DNA from: Schmidtea polychroa
Taxonomy: Eukaryota
Reading direction: 5' to 3'
NCBI GenBank assembly: GCA_044892525.1
Contig: CM097885.1
Span: 21,144,001-21,208,000, forward strand
DNA length: 64,000 bases
Position 1 is the stretch's first letter, and each line of letters starts with the position of its first letter. Below are positions 6,101 to 36,100 of this stretch, piece by piece. A program made the translations under genes and the position numbers. The notes beneath the pieces are model-generated. The model was not told where the DNA came from. It made no database searches and saw only the letters and a program-made list of their open reading frames with translations.

Positions 6101-9100
6101 TGATTGTCTGAGTAAGGTTTCTGAAACAGCTTCTCAACTATCCAATGTTAAAGTAAGCTTAGTTGGAAAAAGTTATTTAAAATTAATTCTTAGGACATTT
6201 ATGTTATTGGAAATCGAATTCCTGGTTACAAGTCCGTCGAAGATTTAATGACAGACTCTGGGAATATGAGTCCCATTGGTCAAGTAGAATTGAATTTAGA
6301 TGAAGATCTGGCAGTTTTACCTTACTCTAGTGGAACCTCTGGACTTCCTAAAGGAGTAATGCTTACACATTCAAATTTTGTTTCGCTTAATAAGCAACTG
6401 GAGTAATAAATTGATAAATATTCATTTATCTTGATTAATATATTAAGAATGTCTCACGAATCAAAAGAAAGTGATTCATATATGTTAATGCTTCCAATGT
6501 ATCATGTGTATGGAATGATATGCATTCCCAACTTTCTATTTGGCATTGGCTTGCCTTGTATAGTTCAACCAAAATTTGATCCGATAAAAATGCTGATGGC
6601 AATTGAAAAGTATAAGGTAATGAATGTTTATATTATTACTATTAAGCAAAGGCGTCTTTAGAAATTTGTCGCCACTGTGCTATAAACTATAATGCGCCCC
6701 TAAAAAACAATTTTTACAAAAATATATTATGTTTATTAATAATATTACACATTATTGTATATAGATATATTAATATTATATATTACATGACTACGACACT
6801 ATTTGTTTGATTATTTTCAACCAGTGGCCTCTCTTGGGAAATTTTTTAAATTATTCATAATTTTTTTTGTAATATCATAAATTATATTTGAAAGTGCAAA
6901 TTTTATCAAATTTATGGCTTTTATAAAATTTACGGCGCCCCTTCACTCACGGTACCCTCTGTGCTTAGCACAGTTAGCACAATGGAAGAGACGGCGCTGC
7001 TATTAAGTATTATTAATTATGATTATTGAAAAGTGAGGAGCACAACCAAAGCTAAATAGTCGAAGATATAAAGTATTGCATAATTTATCATGGGGCCTTT
7101 CATAATTCTACATCATTACACAGCCACTTTATACGGTTATGTCATAATGTAGCCTGTGACTTCAATATGCTCATTCATATTCTACTAAAAAATAATTTTT
7201 TTGAAAAAATAAAGAGTTGCCGATCCTAAGATTTGAACCCAGTTACTAAAATGACATCAATGAGTGTGATAATCACTGAGCTACTAGACACATATAAAAC
7301 ATCATTTTATTGGGTTAATCAACTTCTTGATAAAATCTTTCTAGCTTTAATTGTAAGCTTCAAACTGCCATATTCATTTTATTAATAAAAAGGGCAAATG
7401 TTTCATTTGTTCAGCAATAGTCGGTTTCAATAAAGTTTTTAATAAAACGGACATTCCTGAAACACATGAAACTACAACGAGATCTCGATTAAAAATGCTG
7501 CTACTTCATAACTAAAAGCAACGTAACCGTTGATTATAAATCTCTTTTAGTCAATCTTACCATTACGGCTGCTAAATTATCATTATTTACAAATTCAGCC
7601 ATTTATGAACAGGTTTTATCTTTTCTGTCCATAAAATAGATGGTAAAATAAATAGAATGATCAACAAAATAATCCTTTTTGTTTATCTGTTTAGTTAAAC
7701 TTTAACACGAACTCAAAATCATTTTTAAAATAAACTAAATCAGTAGATGGATTGGGCACCGCTGGCACAGGGCACCGCTAGCACAGTACCCCCCTCCCCC
7801 CGGTCGTAAAATTTTTTAAAAATTCTAAGTCTAAAAGTACATTTTTTTCAAGGTCAAATTTAAACAAAGACATATGACTCATCAAGGTCATTGAAACAAA
7901 GACCATGACTCATCCGATGACTCATCAAATTTCTCAAGGTCATTTAAACAAAGACCATGACTCATCCTATGACTCACCAAGGTCATTTTCAAGGCCATAT
8001 GACTCATAATATGACTCATAAAGGTGAAAAAAATTTTCAATGTCATTTAAACAAAGGACATGACACATCAAGGTCATTTTCAAGGTCATCTGAGTCATCC
8101 TATGAGTCATCAAGGTCATTTTCAAGGTAATATGACTCATCCGACGAGTCAATAAAATTTTCAAGGTCATTTAAACAAAGACCATGACTCATTCAAGGTT
8201 ATTCTCAAGGTCATATGACTCGTCCGATGAGTCATAAAAATTTTCAAGGTCATTTAAACAAAGACCGTGACTCATTCAAGGTCATTCTCAAGGTCGTGTG
8301 ACTCATCCAAGTTCATTTTCAAGGTCATATGACTCATACTATGACTCGTCAAAATTTTTCAAGGTCATTTTCAAGGTCATCTGAGTCATCCTATGACTCA
8401 TCAAGGTCATTTTCAAGGTCGCATGATTCATCCAAGGTCATTCCCAAGGTCATATGAGTCATCGCGATGAGTCATCAAGGTCATATTATTATTTTTAAAA
8501 AATATTTTTATTTTTATTATTATTTTTAAACAATATTATTATTTTATTTTTAATTTTTTCAAAGTTCCCGTCAACGAAAATTAATAATCGATAGCTCATT
8601 TTAAAGCTCAACCCAAGACCCTTCGAATGAGCTATATATCTTGTTATTATTATTATTATTATTATTATTATTATTATTATTATTATTATTATTATTATTA
8701 TTATTATTATTATTATTATTATTAATATAATATTATTATTATTATTATTATTATTATTATTATTATTATTATTATTATTATTATTATTATTATTATTATT
8801 AGTATTATTAGTATTAATCTATATACACCGAGTCTATCCGACAAAATATTTTGTCCCCCTATGGGTAATGCTCACAAGGGTACTGGTCACGCTCAACAAC
8901 TCACAAATCAACAAATCAACAAAACATACATTTATTTAAACAATAAAATAATGTAAAATTAACAAAGGTAAACTAAATATATATAGTATGATATTCATTA
9001 ATCAGTGTTGAACAGGCTTGACACTTGCGAACATTCTTCTCGTGACACTTAGAACAAACAATTACGTGACCACACGGTAAATACAAAACCGAAACTTGAT

Positions 9101-33100: not shown

Positions 33101-36100
33101 ATTTAAAATATGATGTTTTATTTATACTAATACTGTATGATTTTGATTGGTTGATAGACTATAAATGTAAAAGAAAGGTTTTGATTTGATACACCATGAA
33201 AACTATATTCATATTGCTAATTATTATAACGAGTGTGTGCTCACACAATACAACAATAACAGTGGAGTCTTTTAATAAATCAATATGTGTTTGTCCGAAT
33301 ACAGCCAAGTTGATGGATATTTTATATATTCTCGACAAACCAAAATGGTCAAAGCATCCAGGAAAAAGAATATCTCAAAGATTGGAGAATTTAGAAAACA
33401 GTTATGAACTATCATTTGAATATATACAAAATATAAAAATTAAATTGATTGATCATATTGAGGTTTTCAATAACTCTATTGTTGAAAATAAAAAGAATAT
33501 GAAAATTATTGATAAGAAGCATGATTATTTATTAAAAAAGATTGAATTATTATTAACAGAAATTCAGACAATCAAAGGATCAATAGAATATCTGAAAATC
33601 AATTCAACGTTACCAATTTCTAACAATATTGCTGCGAATAGTAGTACATCAATATTTAGTTTACCTTTGTTAATTTTACATTATTTTATTGTTTAAATAA
33701 ATGTATGTTTTGTTGATTTGTTGATTTGTGAGTTGTTGAGCGTGACCAGTACCCTTGTGAGCATTACCCATAGGGGGACAAAATATTTTGTCGGATAGAC
33801 TCGGAGGATATAGACTCGGTGTATATAGATTAATACTACTACTACTACTAATAATAATAATAATAATAACAGGATATATAGCTCATTCGAAAGGTCTTGG
33901 ATTGAGCTTTAAAATGAGCTATCGATTATTAATTTTCGTTGACGGGAACTTTGAAAAAAAAATTAAAAATAAAATAATAATATTTTTTAAAAATAATAAT
34001 ATGACCTTGATGACTCATCGCAATGACTCACATGACCTTGGGAATGACCTTGGATGAGTCATGCGACCTTGAAAATGACCTTGATGAGTCATCGGATGAC
34101 TCAGATGACCTTGAAAATGACCTTGAAAATTTTTGATGAGTCATGGTATGAGTCATATGACCTCGAGAATGACCTTGAAATTTTTTGATGAGTCATAGCA
34201 TGAGTCATATGACCTTGAGAATGACCTTGAATGAGTCATGTGACCTTGAAATGACCTTGGATGAGCCATACGACCTTGAGAATGACCTTGATTGAGTCAC
34301 GGTCTTTGTTTAAATGACCTTGAAAATTTTTATGACTCATCGGATGAGTCAAATGACCTTGATAACTCATAGGATGACTCAGGTGACCTTGAAAATGTCC
34401 TTGATGAGTCATGGTCTTTGTTTAAATGACCTTGAGAAATTAGATGAGTCATAGGATGAGTCATGGTATTTGTTTCAATGTCCTGATGAGTCATATGCCT
34501 TTGTTTAAATTTGACCTTGAAAAAAAATGTACTTTTAGGCTTAGAATTTTTTAAAAATTTTACGACCGGGGGGAGGGGGGTACTGTGCTAGCGGTGCCCT
34601 GTGCCAGCGGTGCCCAATCCATCTACTTAAATCCAATGTCACGGAGAGAAGCAATATATAATTAAAAACTCACAATTCAACTAACATCAGACAACTGCCA
34701 GACAACCTGCACACCTGATCGTATAGAGCCTCTGACTTTCCAATTATTAAAAATATTAATAATTTAATAATTAAATTGCAAATACATAATTAAATTAATA
34801 AAATTAAAATACATTGTTTTAATATTCATATAATATTCACACACGTACACATGAGACACGAAAATTTCTCTCCGCCCCAGGTAAGCATACAACATTGCTG
34901 ATTCAACGCTATTGCATACTTTACCTGCTACACTGGAAATCACATCACTTGAAAATTAGCTTGGTCGCAGAAAAAATATCTGCAAACTTGTTAACATGAC
35001 TTATGAAAAATCATATTCGCCTCTGGAGGCACCGTCTAAACCCATCTATAATCTTCGCGTCTCATGCATAGTACTGATGAGAGCCAAAATCTCGAAACTA
35101 GTCTACTATTGGGATTTACACTTGGTATCACAAAGCTTGTAATGTTTATATTTTAATGTTAGATATCCGTAAAAAAATATTTTACACCATTACAAGTTAA
35201 AAATGCTAAAGGTTTACGAATGCACTTGTAAACAGTTTCTATGTATAGACGGTGTCTCCAGAGGTGAATATGATTTTTCAAATGCCATTTTTACAAGTTT
35301 ACAGATATTTTTTCTGTGATTTAGCTAATTTGCAAGTGATATGATTTCCAGTGTAGCAGGTAAAGTATATAATAGAGTTGAATCAGCAATATTGTATACT
35401 TACCTGCGTGAAGAGAAATCTTCGAGTCTCCTGTATAGTACTGATGAGAGCCAAAAGCTCGAAACTAGTCTACTATTAGGATTTGAACTGGGTATCACAA
35501 AGCTTGCAATGTTTATATTATTTTATATTATTTAATGTTAGACATTCGTAAAAAAATATTTTACACCATTACAAGTTAAAAATGCTTAAGGTTTACGGAT
35601 TCACTTGTAAACAGTTTCTGTGTATGACTTAGATTCTCTTTAACGCTCGGCTCAATAATTTCAGTTTTAAGAACCGCTATTTGGAGGTGACCGTTCAAGT
35701 TGGAGAGATTGGTACCAACTCAAATTTAGTGATCAAATGAATAATTATCTGTGATCTAAACTTGATGTAAACAGAGGCGAAAACAAAATAGGGAAGAATT
35801 AAATTAAATTTTTAAATTAAATAGATTAATAATAAATTTTAAAAACTCTTTCTTTTAATCGGCGAAATGTAATAGTTTTTTTTATTCTGCACGCATTTCA
35901 TCATGTTAGCTTAATATGTTTAATAACAAAGAAATTATGAACCTAAGTTTGTAAACTTAGAAGTTAAAAAGAAATTTAAAGCATCATAGATATACTTGAC
36001 TCGGGAAACTGTATTAGGAAACATTTCATATCCCAAGATATTTGCTATCCAAAGAGATGCTGTTGATTGTGGAATGTTAATTGTACGTATAAGTTGTCAC

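What the first reader, a model, noticed from the sequence alone, without database searches (positions are those of the whole stretch)
7742..34627. Oversized Polinton/adintovirus carrying a putative host-control toolkit (Bcl-2-like, IAP-type RING, TBP-like, surface protein)
Seen: exact termini, a 6-bp TSD, a full virion-morphogenesis module, and accessory ORFs with Bcl-2, RING and TBP motifs. Known: canonical Polintons are usually described by pPolB, integrase, ATPase, protease and capsids, whereas apoptosis inhibitors and TBP homologs are typical of larger DNA viruses. Inference: this family behaves like an endogenous virus that blocks cell death and redirects transcription. A second copy at 62175 shows at least the Bcl-2-like and surface genes are family features. 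I cannot confirm novelty without a database search.
Basis: partly seen in the sequence, partly recalled or inferred. Interest (0 to 1): 0.9.

Follow-up and report, generated by a model that had tools for sequence, protein, structure and literature searches.

The report
Polinton provirus with nested satellite
This is a broken copy of an ordinary-sized, very abundant virus-like Polinton transposon that looks oversized only because a gene-poor relative jumped into it; its cell-death and transcription genes are real family features, but genes of these kinds have already been reported in such viruses.

Summary
The termini, the 6-bp TAAATC duplication and the Polinton core are real: pPolB, chromo-integrase, A32 ATPase, adenain protease and a double jelly-roll capsid protein. 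The 26.9-kb size is not a family trait. A third exact terminus lies at 14471, and 14471-~23337 is a nested, palindromic, non-autonomous relative. Without it the element is about 18.0 kb, like seven of the eight canonical copies fetched (18.2-19.8 kb).

The RING ORF lies in the nested element; the host element has a deletion at the homologous place. This copy is also defective. pPolB has an in-frame stop, the TBP-like gene has a frame change, and the Bcl-2-like gene lacks the splice donor seen in the 8 other copies.

Across copies the accessory genes are real and constrained (dN/dS 0.09-0.38). They are a two-exon Bcl-2 homologue with BH1, BH2 and a membrane tail, a compact 145-aa TBP (pLDDT 94.9, TBP fold), and an IAP-type RING without a BIR domain. 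The TBP gene lies beside Polinton core genes in many metagenome contigs.

Bcl2 and IAP homologues in adintoviruses, and TBP in related viruses, are in print (Starrett 2021). This scan found Polinton TBP genes before on other DNA. Verdict: new member of a known kind.

The parts
7736..7741 (.). Left target-site duplication, TAAATC
   Evidence: the same 6 bp follow the right terminus at 34628-34633.
7742..8980 (+). Left terminal inverted repeat: exact 20-nt terminus followed by subterminal arrays rich in ATGACTCAT and AAGGTCA motifs
9104..9109 (.). Place where the host element lacks about 350 bp, the RING-gene segment that canonical copies b, d, g carry here
   Evidence: window 9104 to 9109 corresponds to b 1257 to 1608, d 1512 to 1863 and g 1444 to 1795. 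The RING segment 19422-20166 matches those copies at that place.
10011..13685 (-). Protein-primed DNA polymerase B gene (main open frames 11313-13685 and 10011-11312), interrupted by an in-frame stop at 11310-11312
   Evidence: Pfam DNA_pol_B_2, 32.5 and 40.3 bits. Stop present versus a sense codon in 8 of 8 other copies. dN/dS 0.14-0.15.
13673..14104 (-). Conserved 143-codon frame upstream of pPolB, function unknown
   Evidence: Present in 8 of 8 copies, with an internal stop in 4 of them. No Pfam hit.
14471..23337 (+). Nested non-autonomous Polinton relative. It has the same terminus and palindromic arms (about 14968-16557 and 20706-22155). Its far terminus is truncated.
   Evidence: It is absent from 8 of 8 canonical copies and homologous to copy 'e' (C1:17771036-17789976).
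19422..19976 (-). IAP-type RING gene of the nested element (ATG ORF 19422-19748; open frame to 19976). No BIR domain; the last Cys pair of the RING is absent.
   Evidence: Pfam zf-C3HC4_3, 38.6 bits. PDB hits: 10 of 14 are IAPs, best cIAP1 at E 1.6e-7. Genome: 146 of 150 scored copies have no stop. pN/pS 0.30-0.33 among 21 copies.
23680..24072 (-). Acidic tandem-repeat open frame of the host element, unknown function
   Evidence: Canonical sequence resumes at about 23340-23373.
24998..25390 (-). Adenain-like cysteine protease (open frame without its own ATG)
   Evidence: Pfam Peptidase_C5, 27.3 bits against a cut-off of 21.3. dN/dS 0.08.
25409..26629 (-). Major capsid protein, double jelly-roll
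   Evidence: AlphaFold2 pLDDT 77.7, pTM 0.79. Foldseek PDB: iridovirus MCP at E 5.5e-16, also PBCV-1 Vp54, mavirus, Sputnik and faustovirus MCPs. dN/dS 0.11.
26626..27000 (-). Small conserved virion-module ORF (124 aa, basic C-terminus), function unknown
   Evidence: Present in 8 of 8 copies and in 6 metagenome relatives between the penton candidate and the MCP.
26993..28060 (-). Penton (minor capsid) candidate, assigned by position only. Two variants about 55% identical exist among copies.
   Evidence: No Pfam hit and no PDB sequence hit.
28006..29085 (-). Integrase: rve core at 28219-29085 with an in-frame 63-nt (ATT)n stretch bounded by GT..AG, probably an intron. A chromodomain ORF lies at 28006-28209.
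   Evidence: Pfam rve 26.9 bits, rve_3 and Chromo 24.7 bits, all just under their cut-offs. Sequence of the insert. 34-68% identical homologues in Polinton-like contigs.
29173..29544 (-). Conserved basic 123-aa ORF, unknown function
   Evidence: 9 metagenome loci. dN/dS 0.11.
29562..30173 (-). A32/FtsK-type packaging ATPase
   Evidence: Pfam Pox_A32, 30.9 bits against a cut-off of 22.8. dN/dS 0.05.
30273..30717 (+). Compact TBP-like gene with two TBP repeats. In this copy a frame change between 30474 and 30495 splits it.
   Evidence: Intact 145-aa form: PF00352 57.1 bits, pLDDT 94.9, and 44 PDB hits at E<=0.001, of which all 37 rows printed for that range are TBPs.
30833..31207 (+). Cys-rich 124-aa ORF, unknown function, strongly constrained (dN/dS 0.09, dS 0.47)
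   Evidence: Only a weak DIM-5 pre-SET-like hit (E 0.12).
31567..31977 (+). 136-aa ORF of unknown function, conserved next to the TBP-like gene in relatives
   Evidence: 21 metagenome loci. No PDB, Pfam or Atlas lead.
32594..33090 (-). Bcl-2-like gene. Exon 1 starts at 33090; exon 2 is 32767-32597 plus the stop. Exon 1 holds a BH1-like motif; exon 2 holds BH2 (WIEANGGW) and a hydrophobic tail. The donor used by other copies is not GT in this copy.
   Evidence: Genome: 148 of 150 scored exon-1 copies have no stop.
33196..33696 (+). 166-aa ORF with an N-terminal signal-like segment, NxS/T sites, a central coiled-coil-like stretch and a hydrophobic C-terminus (putative secreted or membrane glycoprotein)
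   Evidence: Sequence. Present in 8 of 8 copies. dN/dS 0.38. No Atlas hit.
33652..34627 (-). Right terminal inverted repeat with the exact terminus
34628..34633 (.). Right target-site duplication, TAAATC
62175..64000 (+). Start of a second, inverted copy of the family. It runs on beyond the window to C1:21229889 (23.7 kb).

Best explanation
The interval holds two mobile elements. The outer one (7742-34627, about 18.0 kb without the insert) is a copy of a very abundant, young Polinton/Maverick (adintovirus-like) provirus family.

Core (shown by sequence or fold): a retrovirus-type integrase with a chromodomain, which made the 6-bp TAAATC duplication; a protein-primed PolB; and a virion module of double jelly-roll MCP, packaging ATPase and adenain protease. 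The penton is only a candidate.

Accessory genes (shown to be conserved across the family):
- a membrane-anchored Bcl-2 homologue, made from two exons;
- a compact two-repeat TBP;
- a signal-peptide protein;
- two small proteins of unknown function;
- in many copies, an IAP-type RING protein next to the left terminus.

Inferred functions. The Bcl-2 homologue and the RING protein delay death of the cell in which the element replicates. The TBP-like protein binds TATA-like sites in the AT-rich element and recruits host RNA polymerase II to its genes.

The inner element (14471-~23337) is a palindromic non-autonomous relative with the same terminus. It keeps only the RING gene and inserted into the repeat-rich spacer upstream of pPolB. 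It later lost its far terminus, and about 650 bp of repeat-rich host-element spacer has no counterpart beyond it.

The outer copy is dead. It has a stop in pPolB, a frame change in the TBP-like gene and a deleted RING segment, and the usual Bcl-2 splice donor is not GT.
For: Structure.
- Termini and TSD.
- The terminus occurs 1259 times forward and 1299 times reverse in the 781-Mb assembly; the control gives 0.
- Seven of the eight fetched canonical copies are 18.2-19.8 kb; the eighth, copy l, is 23.7 kb. All eight match only window 7742-~14470 and ~24050-34627. The ninth copy fetched, 'e', matches only 14576-23176.
- Canonical sequence resumes at about 23340-23373.

Core genes.
- Pfam hits.
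- MCP fold.

Accessory genes.
- The ORFs other than RING are present in 8 of 8 canonical copies; RING is in 5 of 8.
- dN/dS among up to 9 copies is 0.05-0.38 for every gene.
- Bcl-2-like: exon 1 hits only Bcl-2 family chains (7 of 7). Exon 2 gives 54 hits, all carrying Bcl-xL sequence (2 of them fusion constructs). The two exons are colinear on PF00452, at positions 12-65 and 86-100. A GTAATA..TAG intron of 44-45 nt in phase 0 was found in 6 of 6 copies scored, and the same donor string is visible in the other two. 148 of 150 scored genomic exon-1 copies are open, out of 2326 candidates.
- TBP-like: PF00352 57.1 bits; 109 homologues at E<=0.001, 37-97% identical; pLDDT 94.9; 44 PDB hits at E<=0.001, of which all 37 rows printed for that range are TBPs, TM 0.66-0.78. 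It lies beside ATPase, integrase, MCP, protease or pPolB in metagenome contigs. Of 81 loci, 26 have the ATPase, 16 the integrase, 11 the MCP and 7 pPolB. 13 of the 16 loci of 5 kb or more with a TBP match have at least one core gene.
- RING.

Defects of this copy.
Against: - No function was tested, and no RNA evidence was obtained.
- The Bcl-2-like exons each score below the Pfam cut-off (16.0 and 12.8 bits against 31.4). The fold of the spliced product could not be predicted here.
- The RING lacks its last Cys pair and has no BIR domain, so ligase or anti-apoptotic activity is uncertain.
- The penton assignment rests on gene order only.
- The dN/dS values come from 5-9 copies out of about 1,280 terminus pairs. 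The copies were chosen by size on one chromosome arm, and the pairwise values are not independent.
- The nested element has no recognisable far terminus or TSD, so simple insertion followed by deletion is inferred, not shown.
Confidence: 0.78

Rival explanations
1. One reading: one exceptionally large (26.9-kb) Polinton whose extra length is cargo, including the RING gene, acquired by this family.
For: The outer termini and the TSD pair up perfectly. The RING gene is homologous to a gene that canonical copies carry.
Against: A third exact terminus lies at 14471. The 8.9-kb segment is absent from 8 of 8 canonical copies and matches a separate non-autonomous element. By my hand count of the first 100 places listed, 32 adjacent +/- terminus pairs up to 45 kb apart have a median spacing of about 18.8 kb.
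Confidence: 0.04
2. The accessory ORFs are passengers without function: recently captured host fragments that look conserved only because the copies are young.
For: Copies are 91-98% identical, so few substitutions are available. The Bcl-2-like gene has only one relative in 1.84 billion representative proteins, as expected for a recent capture.
Against: Synonymous changes exceed non-synonymous ones per site in every accessory gene: dN/dS 0.09-0.38 overall, Bcl-2 exon 1 at 0.15 with dS 0.29, and orf124b at 0.09 with dS 0.47. The TBP-like gene and orf136 are kept beside the core genes in relatives whose MCP is only 27-57% identical. The RING gene is constrained within the satellites as well.
Confidence: 0.08
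3. The genes are functional but act otherwise than proposed. The Bcl-2-like protein could be pro-death or regulate calcium or mitochondria. The TBP-like protein could be a decoy that shuts off host promoters, or could bind the terminal repeat arrays for replication or packaging. The RING-like protein could be a non-catalytic adaptor.
For: BH1 departs from the consensus (KWTR). No BH3 or BH4 motif was assessed. The first TBP repeat lacks helix 1, and one of the four DNA-kinking Phe positions is not kept. The role of those residues is recalled; the alignments are. The RING lacks its last Cys pair. The terminal arrays carry dozens of repeated protein-binding-type motifs.
Against: Nothing here excludes it. 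Precedent favours pro-survival viral Bcl-2 and IAP homologues (Starrett 2021). The second TBP repeat keeps both Phe positions (invariant F97 and F113).
Confidence: 0.15

Closest known systems
Polinton/Maverick elements (polintoviruses) and Adintoviridae (Starrett et al. 2021, PMC8502044)
   Same: TIRs with 5'-AG termini and a 6-bp TSD; pPolB; rve integrase; A32/FtsK ATPase; adenain protease; double jelly-roll MCP. Accessory Bcl2 and IAP homologues are reported for adintoviruses (section 3.2 read; Supplementary Fig. S2 text shows Bcl2 and IAP labels on maps).
   Different: Here the Bcl-2-like, TBP-like and RING genes occur together in one family of about 1,280 terminus pairs. Placement in the Alpha or Beta adintovirus clades was not tested. 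No PLA2X, gasderminX or cupiennin homologue was detected by Pfam.
TBP homologues of MELD viruses with adintovirus-like PolB (Starrett 2021, Fig. 5 legend) and of giant viruses
   Same: Two-repeat TBP fold. BFVD hits include Heterosigma akashiwo virus, Terrestrivirus, mimivirid and marseillevirus proteins and an asfarvirus B263R homologue, at E 4.8e-8 to 1e-3.
   Different: Only 145 aa. The first repeat lacks helix 1, and cellular TBPs are the closer structural matches (E 4e-9). The Pfam TFIIB family gave only 25 matches in the whole genome and none in the window, so this ~1,280-copy family carries no Pfam-detectable TFIIB. Earlier notes of this scan describe TBP plus TFIIB pairs in other Polintons.
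Cellular and viral pro-survival Bcl-2 proteins (Bcl-xL, A1/BFL-1)
   Same: BH1-like and BH2 motifs in the right order and spacing, and a C-terminal hydrophobic anchor.
   Different: Very divergent: below the Pfam cut-off, and only one relative in the 1.84-billion-protein library. The intron lies 8 codons before the BH2 tryptophan. From recall, this is not the place of the conserved intron of cellular Bcl-2 genes.
IAP proteins (cIAP1/2, XIAP, ML-IAP; baculoviral IAPs)
   Same: The RING is most similar to IAP RINGs: 10 of 14 PDB hits, with E from 1.6e-7 to 1e-4.
   Different: No BIR domain. The last CxxC pair of the RING is absent. In this genome the 150 best-scoring copies are all of the type carried by the nested element, many of them in inverted pairs as in the palindromic copy 'e'.
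Palindromic non-autonomous Polinton/Maverick satellites noted earlier in this scan (e1-7879908 in this genome; e1-7803791 in another)
   Same: Same termini as the autonomous family, mirror-image arms, and no replication or capsid genes.
   Different: This one carries a selected IAP-type RING gene in its unique middle. Whether it is the same family as e1-7879908, which was described as gene-less, was not tested.

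Membership tests
Polinton/Maverick | Terminal inverted repeats with a 6-bp target-site duplication | tested here: met
   exact 20-nt termini, TIRs of about 1.2 kb, and TAAATC on both flanks.
Polinton/Maverick | [quoted passage not shown] | tested here: met
   PF03175, 32.5 and 40.3 bits against a cut-off of 25.8. This copy has an in-frame stop.
Polinton/Maverick | Retrovirus-type (rve) integrase | tested here: met
   rve 26.9 bits (cut-off 32.6) and rve_3 lie on either side of a 21-codon insert. 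34-68% identical homologues sit in Polinton-like contigs. The Pfam score alone is under the cut-off.
Polinton/Maverick | Double jelly-roll major capsid protein | tested here: met
Polinton/Maverick | Single jelly-roll penton protein | tested here: inconclusive
   A conserved ORF sits at the expected place.
Polinton/Maverick | A32/FtsK packaging ATPase and adenain-like protease | tested here: met
   PF04665 30.9 bits and PF00770 27.3 bits, both above their cut-offs.
Adintoviridae | PolB and virion proteins inside the Alpha or Beta adintovirus clades | not testable with these tools
   No reference adintovirus sequences were at hand. Earlier notes on this genome call its PolB Alpha-type; this was not checked here.
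Bcl-2 family | Profile match above the curated threshold | tested here: not met
   PF00452 scores 16.0 bits for exon 1 and 12.8 bits for exon 2, against a cut-off of 31.4. The spliced product could not be submitted.
Bcl-2 family | BH1 and BH2 motifs in order, plus a C-terminal membrane anchor | tested here: met
   the BH1-like motif aligns to A1/BFL-1, WIEANGGW aligns to the BH2 of Bcl-xL, and there is a hydrophobic tail. All PDB hits carry Bcl-2 family sequence (7 of 7 and 54 of 54).
Bcl-2 family | Helical-bundle Bcl-2 fold | not tested
IAP | At least one BIR domain | tested here: not met
   No BIR hit in the 108-aa ORF or in the 184-aa open frame.
IAP | C-terminal C3HC4 RING of the IAP type | tested here: inconclusive
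   PF13920 38.6 bits, and IAP RINGs are the best PDB hits. The match stops at profile position 41 of 49, and the last CxxC pair is missing.
TBP (TATA-box-binding protein) | Two tandem TBP repeats forming the saddle fold | tested here: met
   PF00352 57.1 bits; pLDDT 94.9; 44 PDB hits at E<=0.001, of which all 37 rows printed for that range are TBPs. The copy in the window itself is frame-shifted.
TBP (TATA-box-binding protein) | DNA-kinking phenylalanine pairs in both repeats | tested here: inconclusive
   Invariant F38, F97 and F113 in 60 homologues align to TBP Phe positions. The fourth position is not Phe. The role of these residues is recalled.

The most novel reading that the evidence does not exclude
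This could be a helper-satellite system. In it, the palindromic, otherwise gene-less satellites of a Polinton family keep one selected IAP-type RING gene in hundreds to thousands of copies. The autonomous helper runs its own promoter recognition with a minimal 145-aa TBP and no TFIIB. It would read arrays of AP-1-like (ATGACTCAT) and nuclear-receptor-half-site-like (AAGGTCA) motifs in its terminal repeats. The satellite's RING protein would then be a traded function, either protection of the cell or sabotage of the helper, rather than a relic.
Probability: 0.2. Interest if true: 0.6.

Novelty: new member of a known kind. Interest (0 to 1): 0.4.

Why it matters
The result corrects the picture. 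The family is of normal size, and this particular copy is dead.

It also gives a well-documented case in which a Polinton/adintovirus-like family combines a Bcl-2 homologue, an IAP-type RING and a compact TBP, all under purifying selection.

Two points go somewhat beyond the printed record that I could search. First, the compact TBP is a conserved neighbour of the packaging ATPase across a broad set of environmental Polinton-like contigs. Second, the RING gene is the one gene kept by the palindromic non-autonomous relatives.

Both points are testable with cDNA and simple cell assays. They bear on how such small DNA viruses control host transcription and cell death.

Tried and rejected
- RNA evidence. 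No RNA holder is on record for window 30200-33750. Contigs of three runs guessed to be RNA (X1, X2, X4) and one run of unknown kind (X7) were laid. No joint across the Bcl-2-like intron was listed. Two X1 contigs end exactly at 32767, the first base of exon 2. This is not evidence either way.
- Bcl-2-like relatives. The word-index search found 1 protein and the exhaustive search found 1, so no alignment could be made for a fold.
- Spliced Bcl-2-like protein. I did not submit a joined product, because the fold and search tools take unaltered translations only.
- ESM Atlas. No usable hit for the surface ORF. Only hits under 0.9 for orf136.
- orf136. The profile gave nothing credible against PDB or Pfam.
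- orf124b. Only a weak match to the Cys-rich pre-SET region of DIM-5, at E 0.12. Rejected as evidence.
- Penton. The profile gave no PDB hit.
- TFIIB partner (lead from earlier notes). PF00382 gives 25 matches in the genome and none in the window. By eye, the ORFs between the TBP-like gene and the ATPase in relatives L021 and L028 show no zinc-ribbon or cyclin-like candidate.
- IMG/VR. Only 1 distant TBP locus was found. It had no hit to any window protein.
- Rfam over 7000-35500. No 7SL-like match inside the nested element at E<=0.1.
- My first intron model (38 nt, donor at 32805). This holds only for this copy. The other copies use a donor 12 nt further on.
- Host species. Not determined. 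A literature search on planarians followed a hunch from recall only.

Full report
OBSERVATION

TAAATC flanks both ends. With up to 3 mismatches the window holds five matches, against 0 expected: 7742+, 14471+, 34627-, a degenerate one at 50484-50503, and 62175+. The match at 14471 lies inside the claimed element and was not reported.

In the whole assembly the terminus occurs 1259 times forward and 1299 times reverse with at most 1 mismatch; the reversed-pattern control gives 0. The assembly is 781 Mb and the window is C1:21144001-21208000. That corresponds to roughly 1,280 element-equivalents.

WHY THE ELEMENT LOOKS OVERSIZED

I fetched nine pairs of facing termini from contig C1 and compared them with the interval (only alignments of 300 bp or more were listed).

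- Eight of them (a, b, c, d, f, g, i, l) match window 7742-~14300/14470 and ~24050/24190-34627, and nothing in between except repeats. Seven of these are 18.2-19.8 kb. Copy l, which is the second copy in the window, is 23.7 kb.
- The ninth (e, 18.9 kb) matches only 14576-23176. It has none of the core genes.
- In copy g the alignment runs to window 14470 exactly. Canonical sequence resumes at about 23340-23373.
- The far end of the inserted piece keeps the subterminal array (22757-23307) but not the last ~100-140 bp with the terminus. About 650 bp of repeat-rich spacer of the host element is also not matched beyond it.

So 14471-~23337 (about 8.9 kb) is a nested non-autonomous relative with large mirror-image arms (about 14968-16557 against 20706-22155). 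The host element is about 18.0 kb. By my hand count of the first 100 places listed, 32 adjacent +/- pairs up to 45 kb apart have a median spacing of about 18.8 kb.

CORE GENES

Pfam supports the following:
- pPolB: PF03175, 32.5 and 40.3 bits.
- Integrase: rve and rve_3 halves just under their cut-offs, plus a chromodomain ORF.
- Packaging ATPase: A32, 30.9 bits.
- Protease: an adenain at 24998-25390 that the ATG-based ORF list had missed (PF00770, 27.3 bits).

The 406-aa ORF at 25409-26629 has no Pfam hit. With ten homologues it folds at pLDDT 77.7 and pTM 0.79. The model matches double jelly-roll capsid proteins of iridovirus (E 5.5e-16), PBCV-1, mavirus, Sputnik and faustovirus.

The 355-aa ORF between the integrase and the MCP is conserved in relatives. 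Among copies it occurs in two variants that are only about 55% identical. No sequence test identified it as a penton.

The integrase ORF contains an in-frame 63-nt (ATT)n stretch bounded by GT and AG. It interrupts the conserved core motif and is probably an intron.

THIS COPY IS BROKEN

- pPolB has an in-frame stop at 11310-11312, where 8 of 8 other copies read a sense codon.
- The two 'TBP' ORFs are separated by 22 nt here and 15 nt elsewhere. 6 of 8 other copies (a, b, d, g, i, l) have one continuous 145-codon ORF. Copy c has a stop and copy f has a later frame change.
- The host element lacks about 350 bp at 9104/9109, where copies b, d and g carry the RING gene.
- In the Bcl-2-like gene, the donor used elsewhere is not GT in this copy.

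BCL-2-LIKE GENE

The 102-aa ORF is exon 1. Downstream, in another frame, lies an exon encoding WIEANGGW followed by a hydrophobic tail.

In copies a, b, c, f, i and l a GTAATA donor sits 297 nt after the ATG, in phase 0. It is followed by a 44- or 45-nt intron ending in TAG, which gives 99 + 57 codons. Copies d and g show the same donor string. The spacer differs in length between the window and the others while exon 2 stays open. The window has only alternative in-phase GT sites, which would give a 38- or 35-nt intron.

Sequence tests:
- Exon 1 alone hits only Bcl-2 family chains in the PDB: 7 of 7, best A1/BFL-1 at E 0.08, aligned over BH1.
- Exon 2 alone gives 54 hits, all carrying Bcl-xL sequence (2 of them fusion constructs), aligned over BH2.
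- On PF00452 the two exons are colinear (positions 12-65 and 86-100), but each scores below the cut-off.
- In the genome there are 2326 candidates. Of the 150 that were scored, 148 have no stop, and 149 match residues 1-93/94 only; the window's own copy matches 1-102.
- Outside this lineage the gene is nearly alone: 1 hit in each of two large protein searches, and 0 of 81 environmental loci (most of these contigs are short).

TBP-LIKE GENE

The intact form (L001:4709-5143) scores 57.1 bits on PF00352. It has 109 homologues at E<=0.001, 37-97% identical, all with PF00352 on record.

With 60 sequences it folds at pLDDT 94.9 and pTM 0.84. It gives 44 PDB hits at E<=0.001; all 37 rows printed for that range are TBPs, with TM 0.66-0.78. 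Giant-virus TBP-like proteins are more distant. The first repeat lacks helix 1.

I scanned 80 metagenome loci and 1 IMG/VR locus with the window's proteins. The counts, out of 81 loci, were:
- TBP second half: 78
- packaging ATPase: 26
- orf136: 21
- integrase: 16
- MCP: 11
- protease: 11
- penton candidate: 10
- pPolB: 7

13 of the 16 loci of 5 kb or more with a TBP match carry at least one core gene. The core genes there are 25-73% identical to the window's. The compact TBP is therefore an old, conserved gene of a broad Polinton lineage and not a peculiarity of this element.

Earlier notes of this scan describe TBP plus TFIIB pairs in other Polintons. Here PF00382 finds 25 places in the genome and none in the window. 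I saw no candidate beside the TBP-like gene in two relatives.

RING GENE

The ORF at 19422-19748 scores 38.6 bits on zf-C3HC4_3. Its best PDB hits are IAP RINGs: 10 of 14, with cIAP1 at E 1.6e-7. Neither the ORF nor the 184-codon open frame has a BIR domain, and the last Cys pair of the RING is missing.

The genome holds 4038 candidates. The 150 that were scored are all 91-100% identical to this nested-element copy, and 146 of them have no stop. Many lie in inverted pairs 3.5-8 kb apart, as in copy e. Canonical copies carry a version 85-88% identical, in 5 of 8.

Among 21 satellite-type copies, pN/pS is 0.30-0.33. It is 0.61 over the 43 RING-core codons, where counts are small.

SELECTION

Nei-Gojobori dN/dS was computed among the window copy and up to 8 others. 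Hits covering less than 90% of a gene were dropped, so n is 5-9, and copy e was excluded.

| Gene | dN/dS |
|---|---|
| ATPase | 0.05 |
| protease | 0.08 |
| orf124b | 0.09 |
| MCP | 0.11 |
| pPolB | 0.14-0.15 |
| Bcl-2 exon 1 | 0.15 |
| RING | 0.24 |
| orf136 | 0.24 |
| TBP first half | 0.25 |
| TBP second half | 0.28 |
| Bcl-2 exon 2 | 0.30 |
| surface ORF | 0.38 |

The sample is small, was chosen by size on one chromosome, and the pairs are not independent.

LITERATURE

- Starrett et al. 2021 (PMC8502044; I read sections 3.2 and 3.4 and searched the held supplement text). The paper states that adintovirus homologues of Bcl2 and IAP were observed. Its Fig. [quoted passage not shown] In the held supplement text, Bcl2 and IAP labels appear on maps and TBP does not.
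- The search 'polinton' with 'TATA-binding protein' gave 5 papers, seen as a listing only. In the search for 'maverick', 'polinton', 'TBP' as whole words, only Starrett's paper and its preprint among the 15 papers listed hold all three.
- The search 'adintovirus' with 'Bcl-2' gave 0 papers.
- Buck et al. 2024 (PMC11071296) has no occurrence of TBP, Bcl or IAP.
- Passages of PMC6431247 report BIR, RING and BCL2-like motifs in the giant Burro retroelements of planarians. This parallel would matter only if the host is such an animal. I did not test that; the assembly's size, its four large contigs and its AT-richness merely recall one.

VERDICT

The element is a dead copy of a normal-sized Polinton carrying a nested RING-bearing satellite. 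The host-control genes are real and selected, and the idea is already in print. The conserved compact TBP and the RING-keeping satellites are the parts worth following up.

Noticed in passing
window 7845-8500, 22757-23307, 33990-34500, 62300-62660: The subterminal arrays of the Polinton family are built of the palindrome ATGACTCAT and of (TC)AAGGTCA. From recall, the first is an AP-1/GCN4-type site and the second resembles a nuclear-receptor half-site. ATGACTCAT occurs 53 times in the window against 0.73 expected, always in these arrays.
   Followed up: partly
window 28640-28710 (minus strand): The integrase ORF holds an in-frame 63-nt (ATT)n stretch bounded by GT..AG that interrupts the conserved core motif. 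It is probably a microsatellite-like intron. The integrase match differs in length between copies.
   Followed up: partly
window 26993-28060 and copies a, c, i, l: Two versions of the penton-candidate gene, only about 55% identical, circulate among otherwise 91-98% identical copies. This suggests modular recombination between lineages.
   Followed up: no
copies a, c, i (L002, L006, L016): These copies lack the RING gene. At that end they carry a second partial copy of the surface-protein gene (residues 26-166) instead, i.e. a longer terminal inverted repeat.
   Followed up: no
window 39631-45744: A gypsy-type LTR retrotransposon. The LTR-like repeats are 39631-40207 and 44964-45744, and the RT-RNaseH-integrase ORF is 42212-44053.
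   Followed up: partly
window 46201-46869 (+): One 222-codon open frame matches both Cofilin_ADF (44.4 bits) and a proteasome subunit (38.7 bits). It may be a chimeric retrocopy or a host exon arrangement.
   Followed up: no
window 35426-35490 (+), beside inverted repeats 34878-35628: Hammerhead ribozyme-like motif (Rfam HH9, 27.3 bits, E 0.0058, below the gathering score of 52) just outside the element.
   Followed up: no
G000 C3:38.2-39.1 Mb and C1:23.8-24.2 Mb: A multi-copy family of about 301-310-codon open frames matches the TFIIB cyclin domain (15 of the 25 PF00382 matches). It may be another mobile element with its own TFIIB.
   Followed up: no
window 50484-50503 (-): A degenerate copy of the Polinton terminus (3 mismatches), perhaps the end of an older or different family member.
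   Followed up: no
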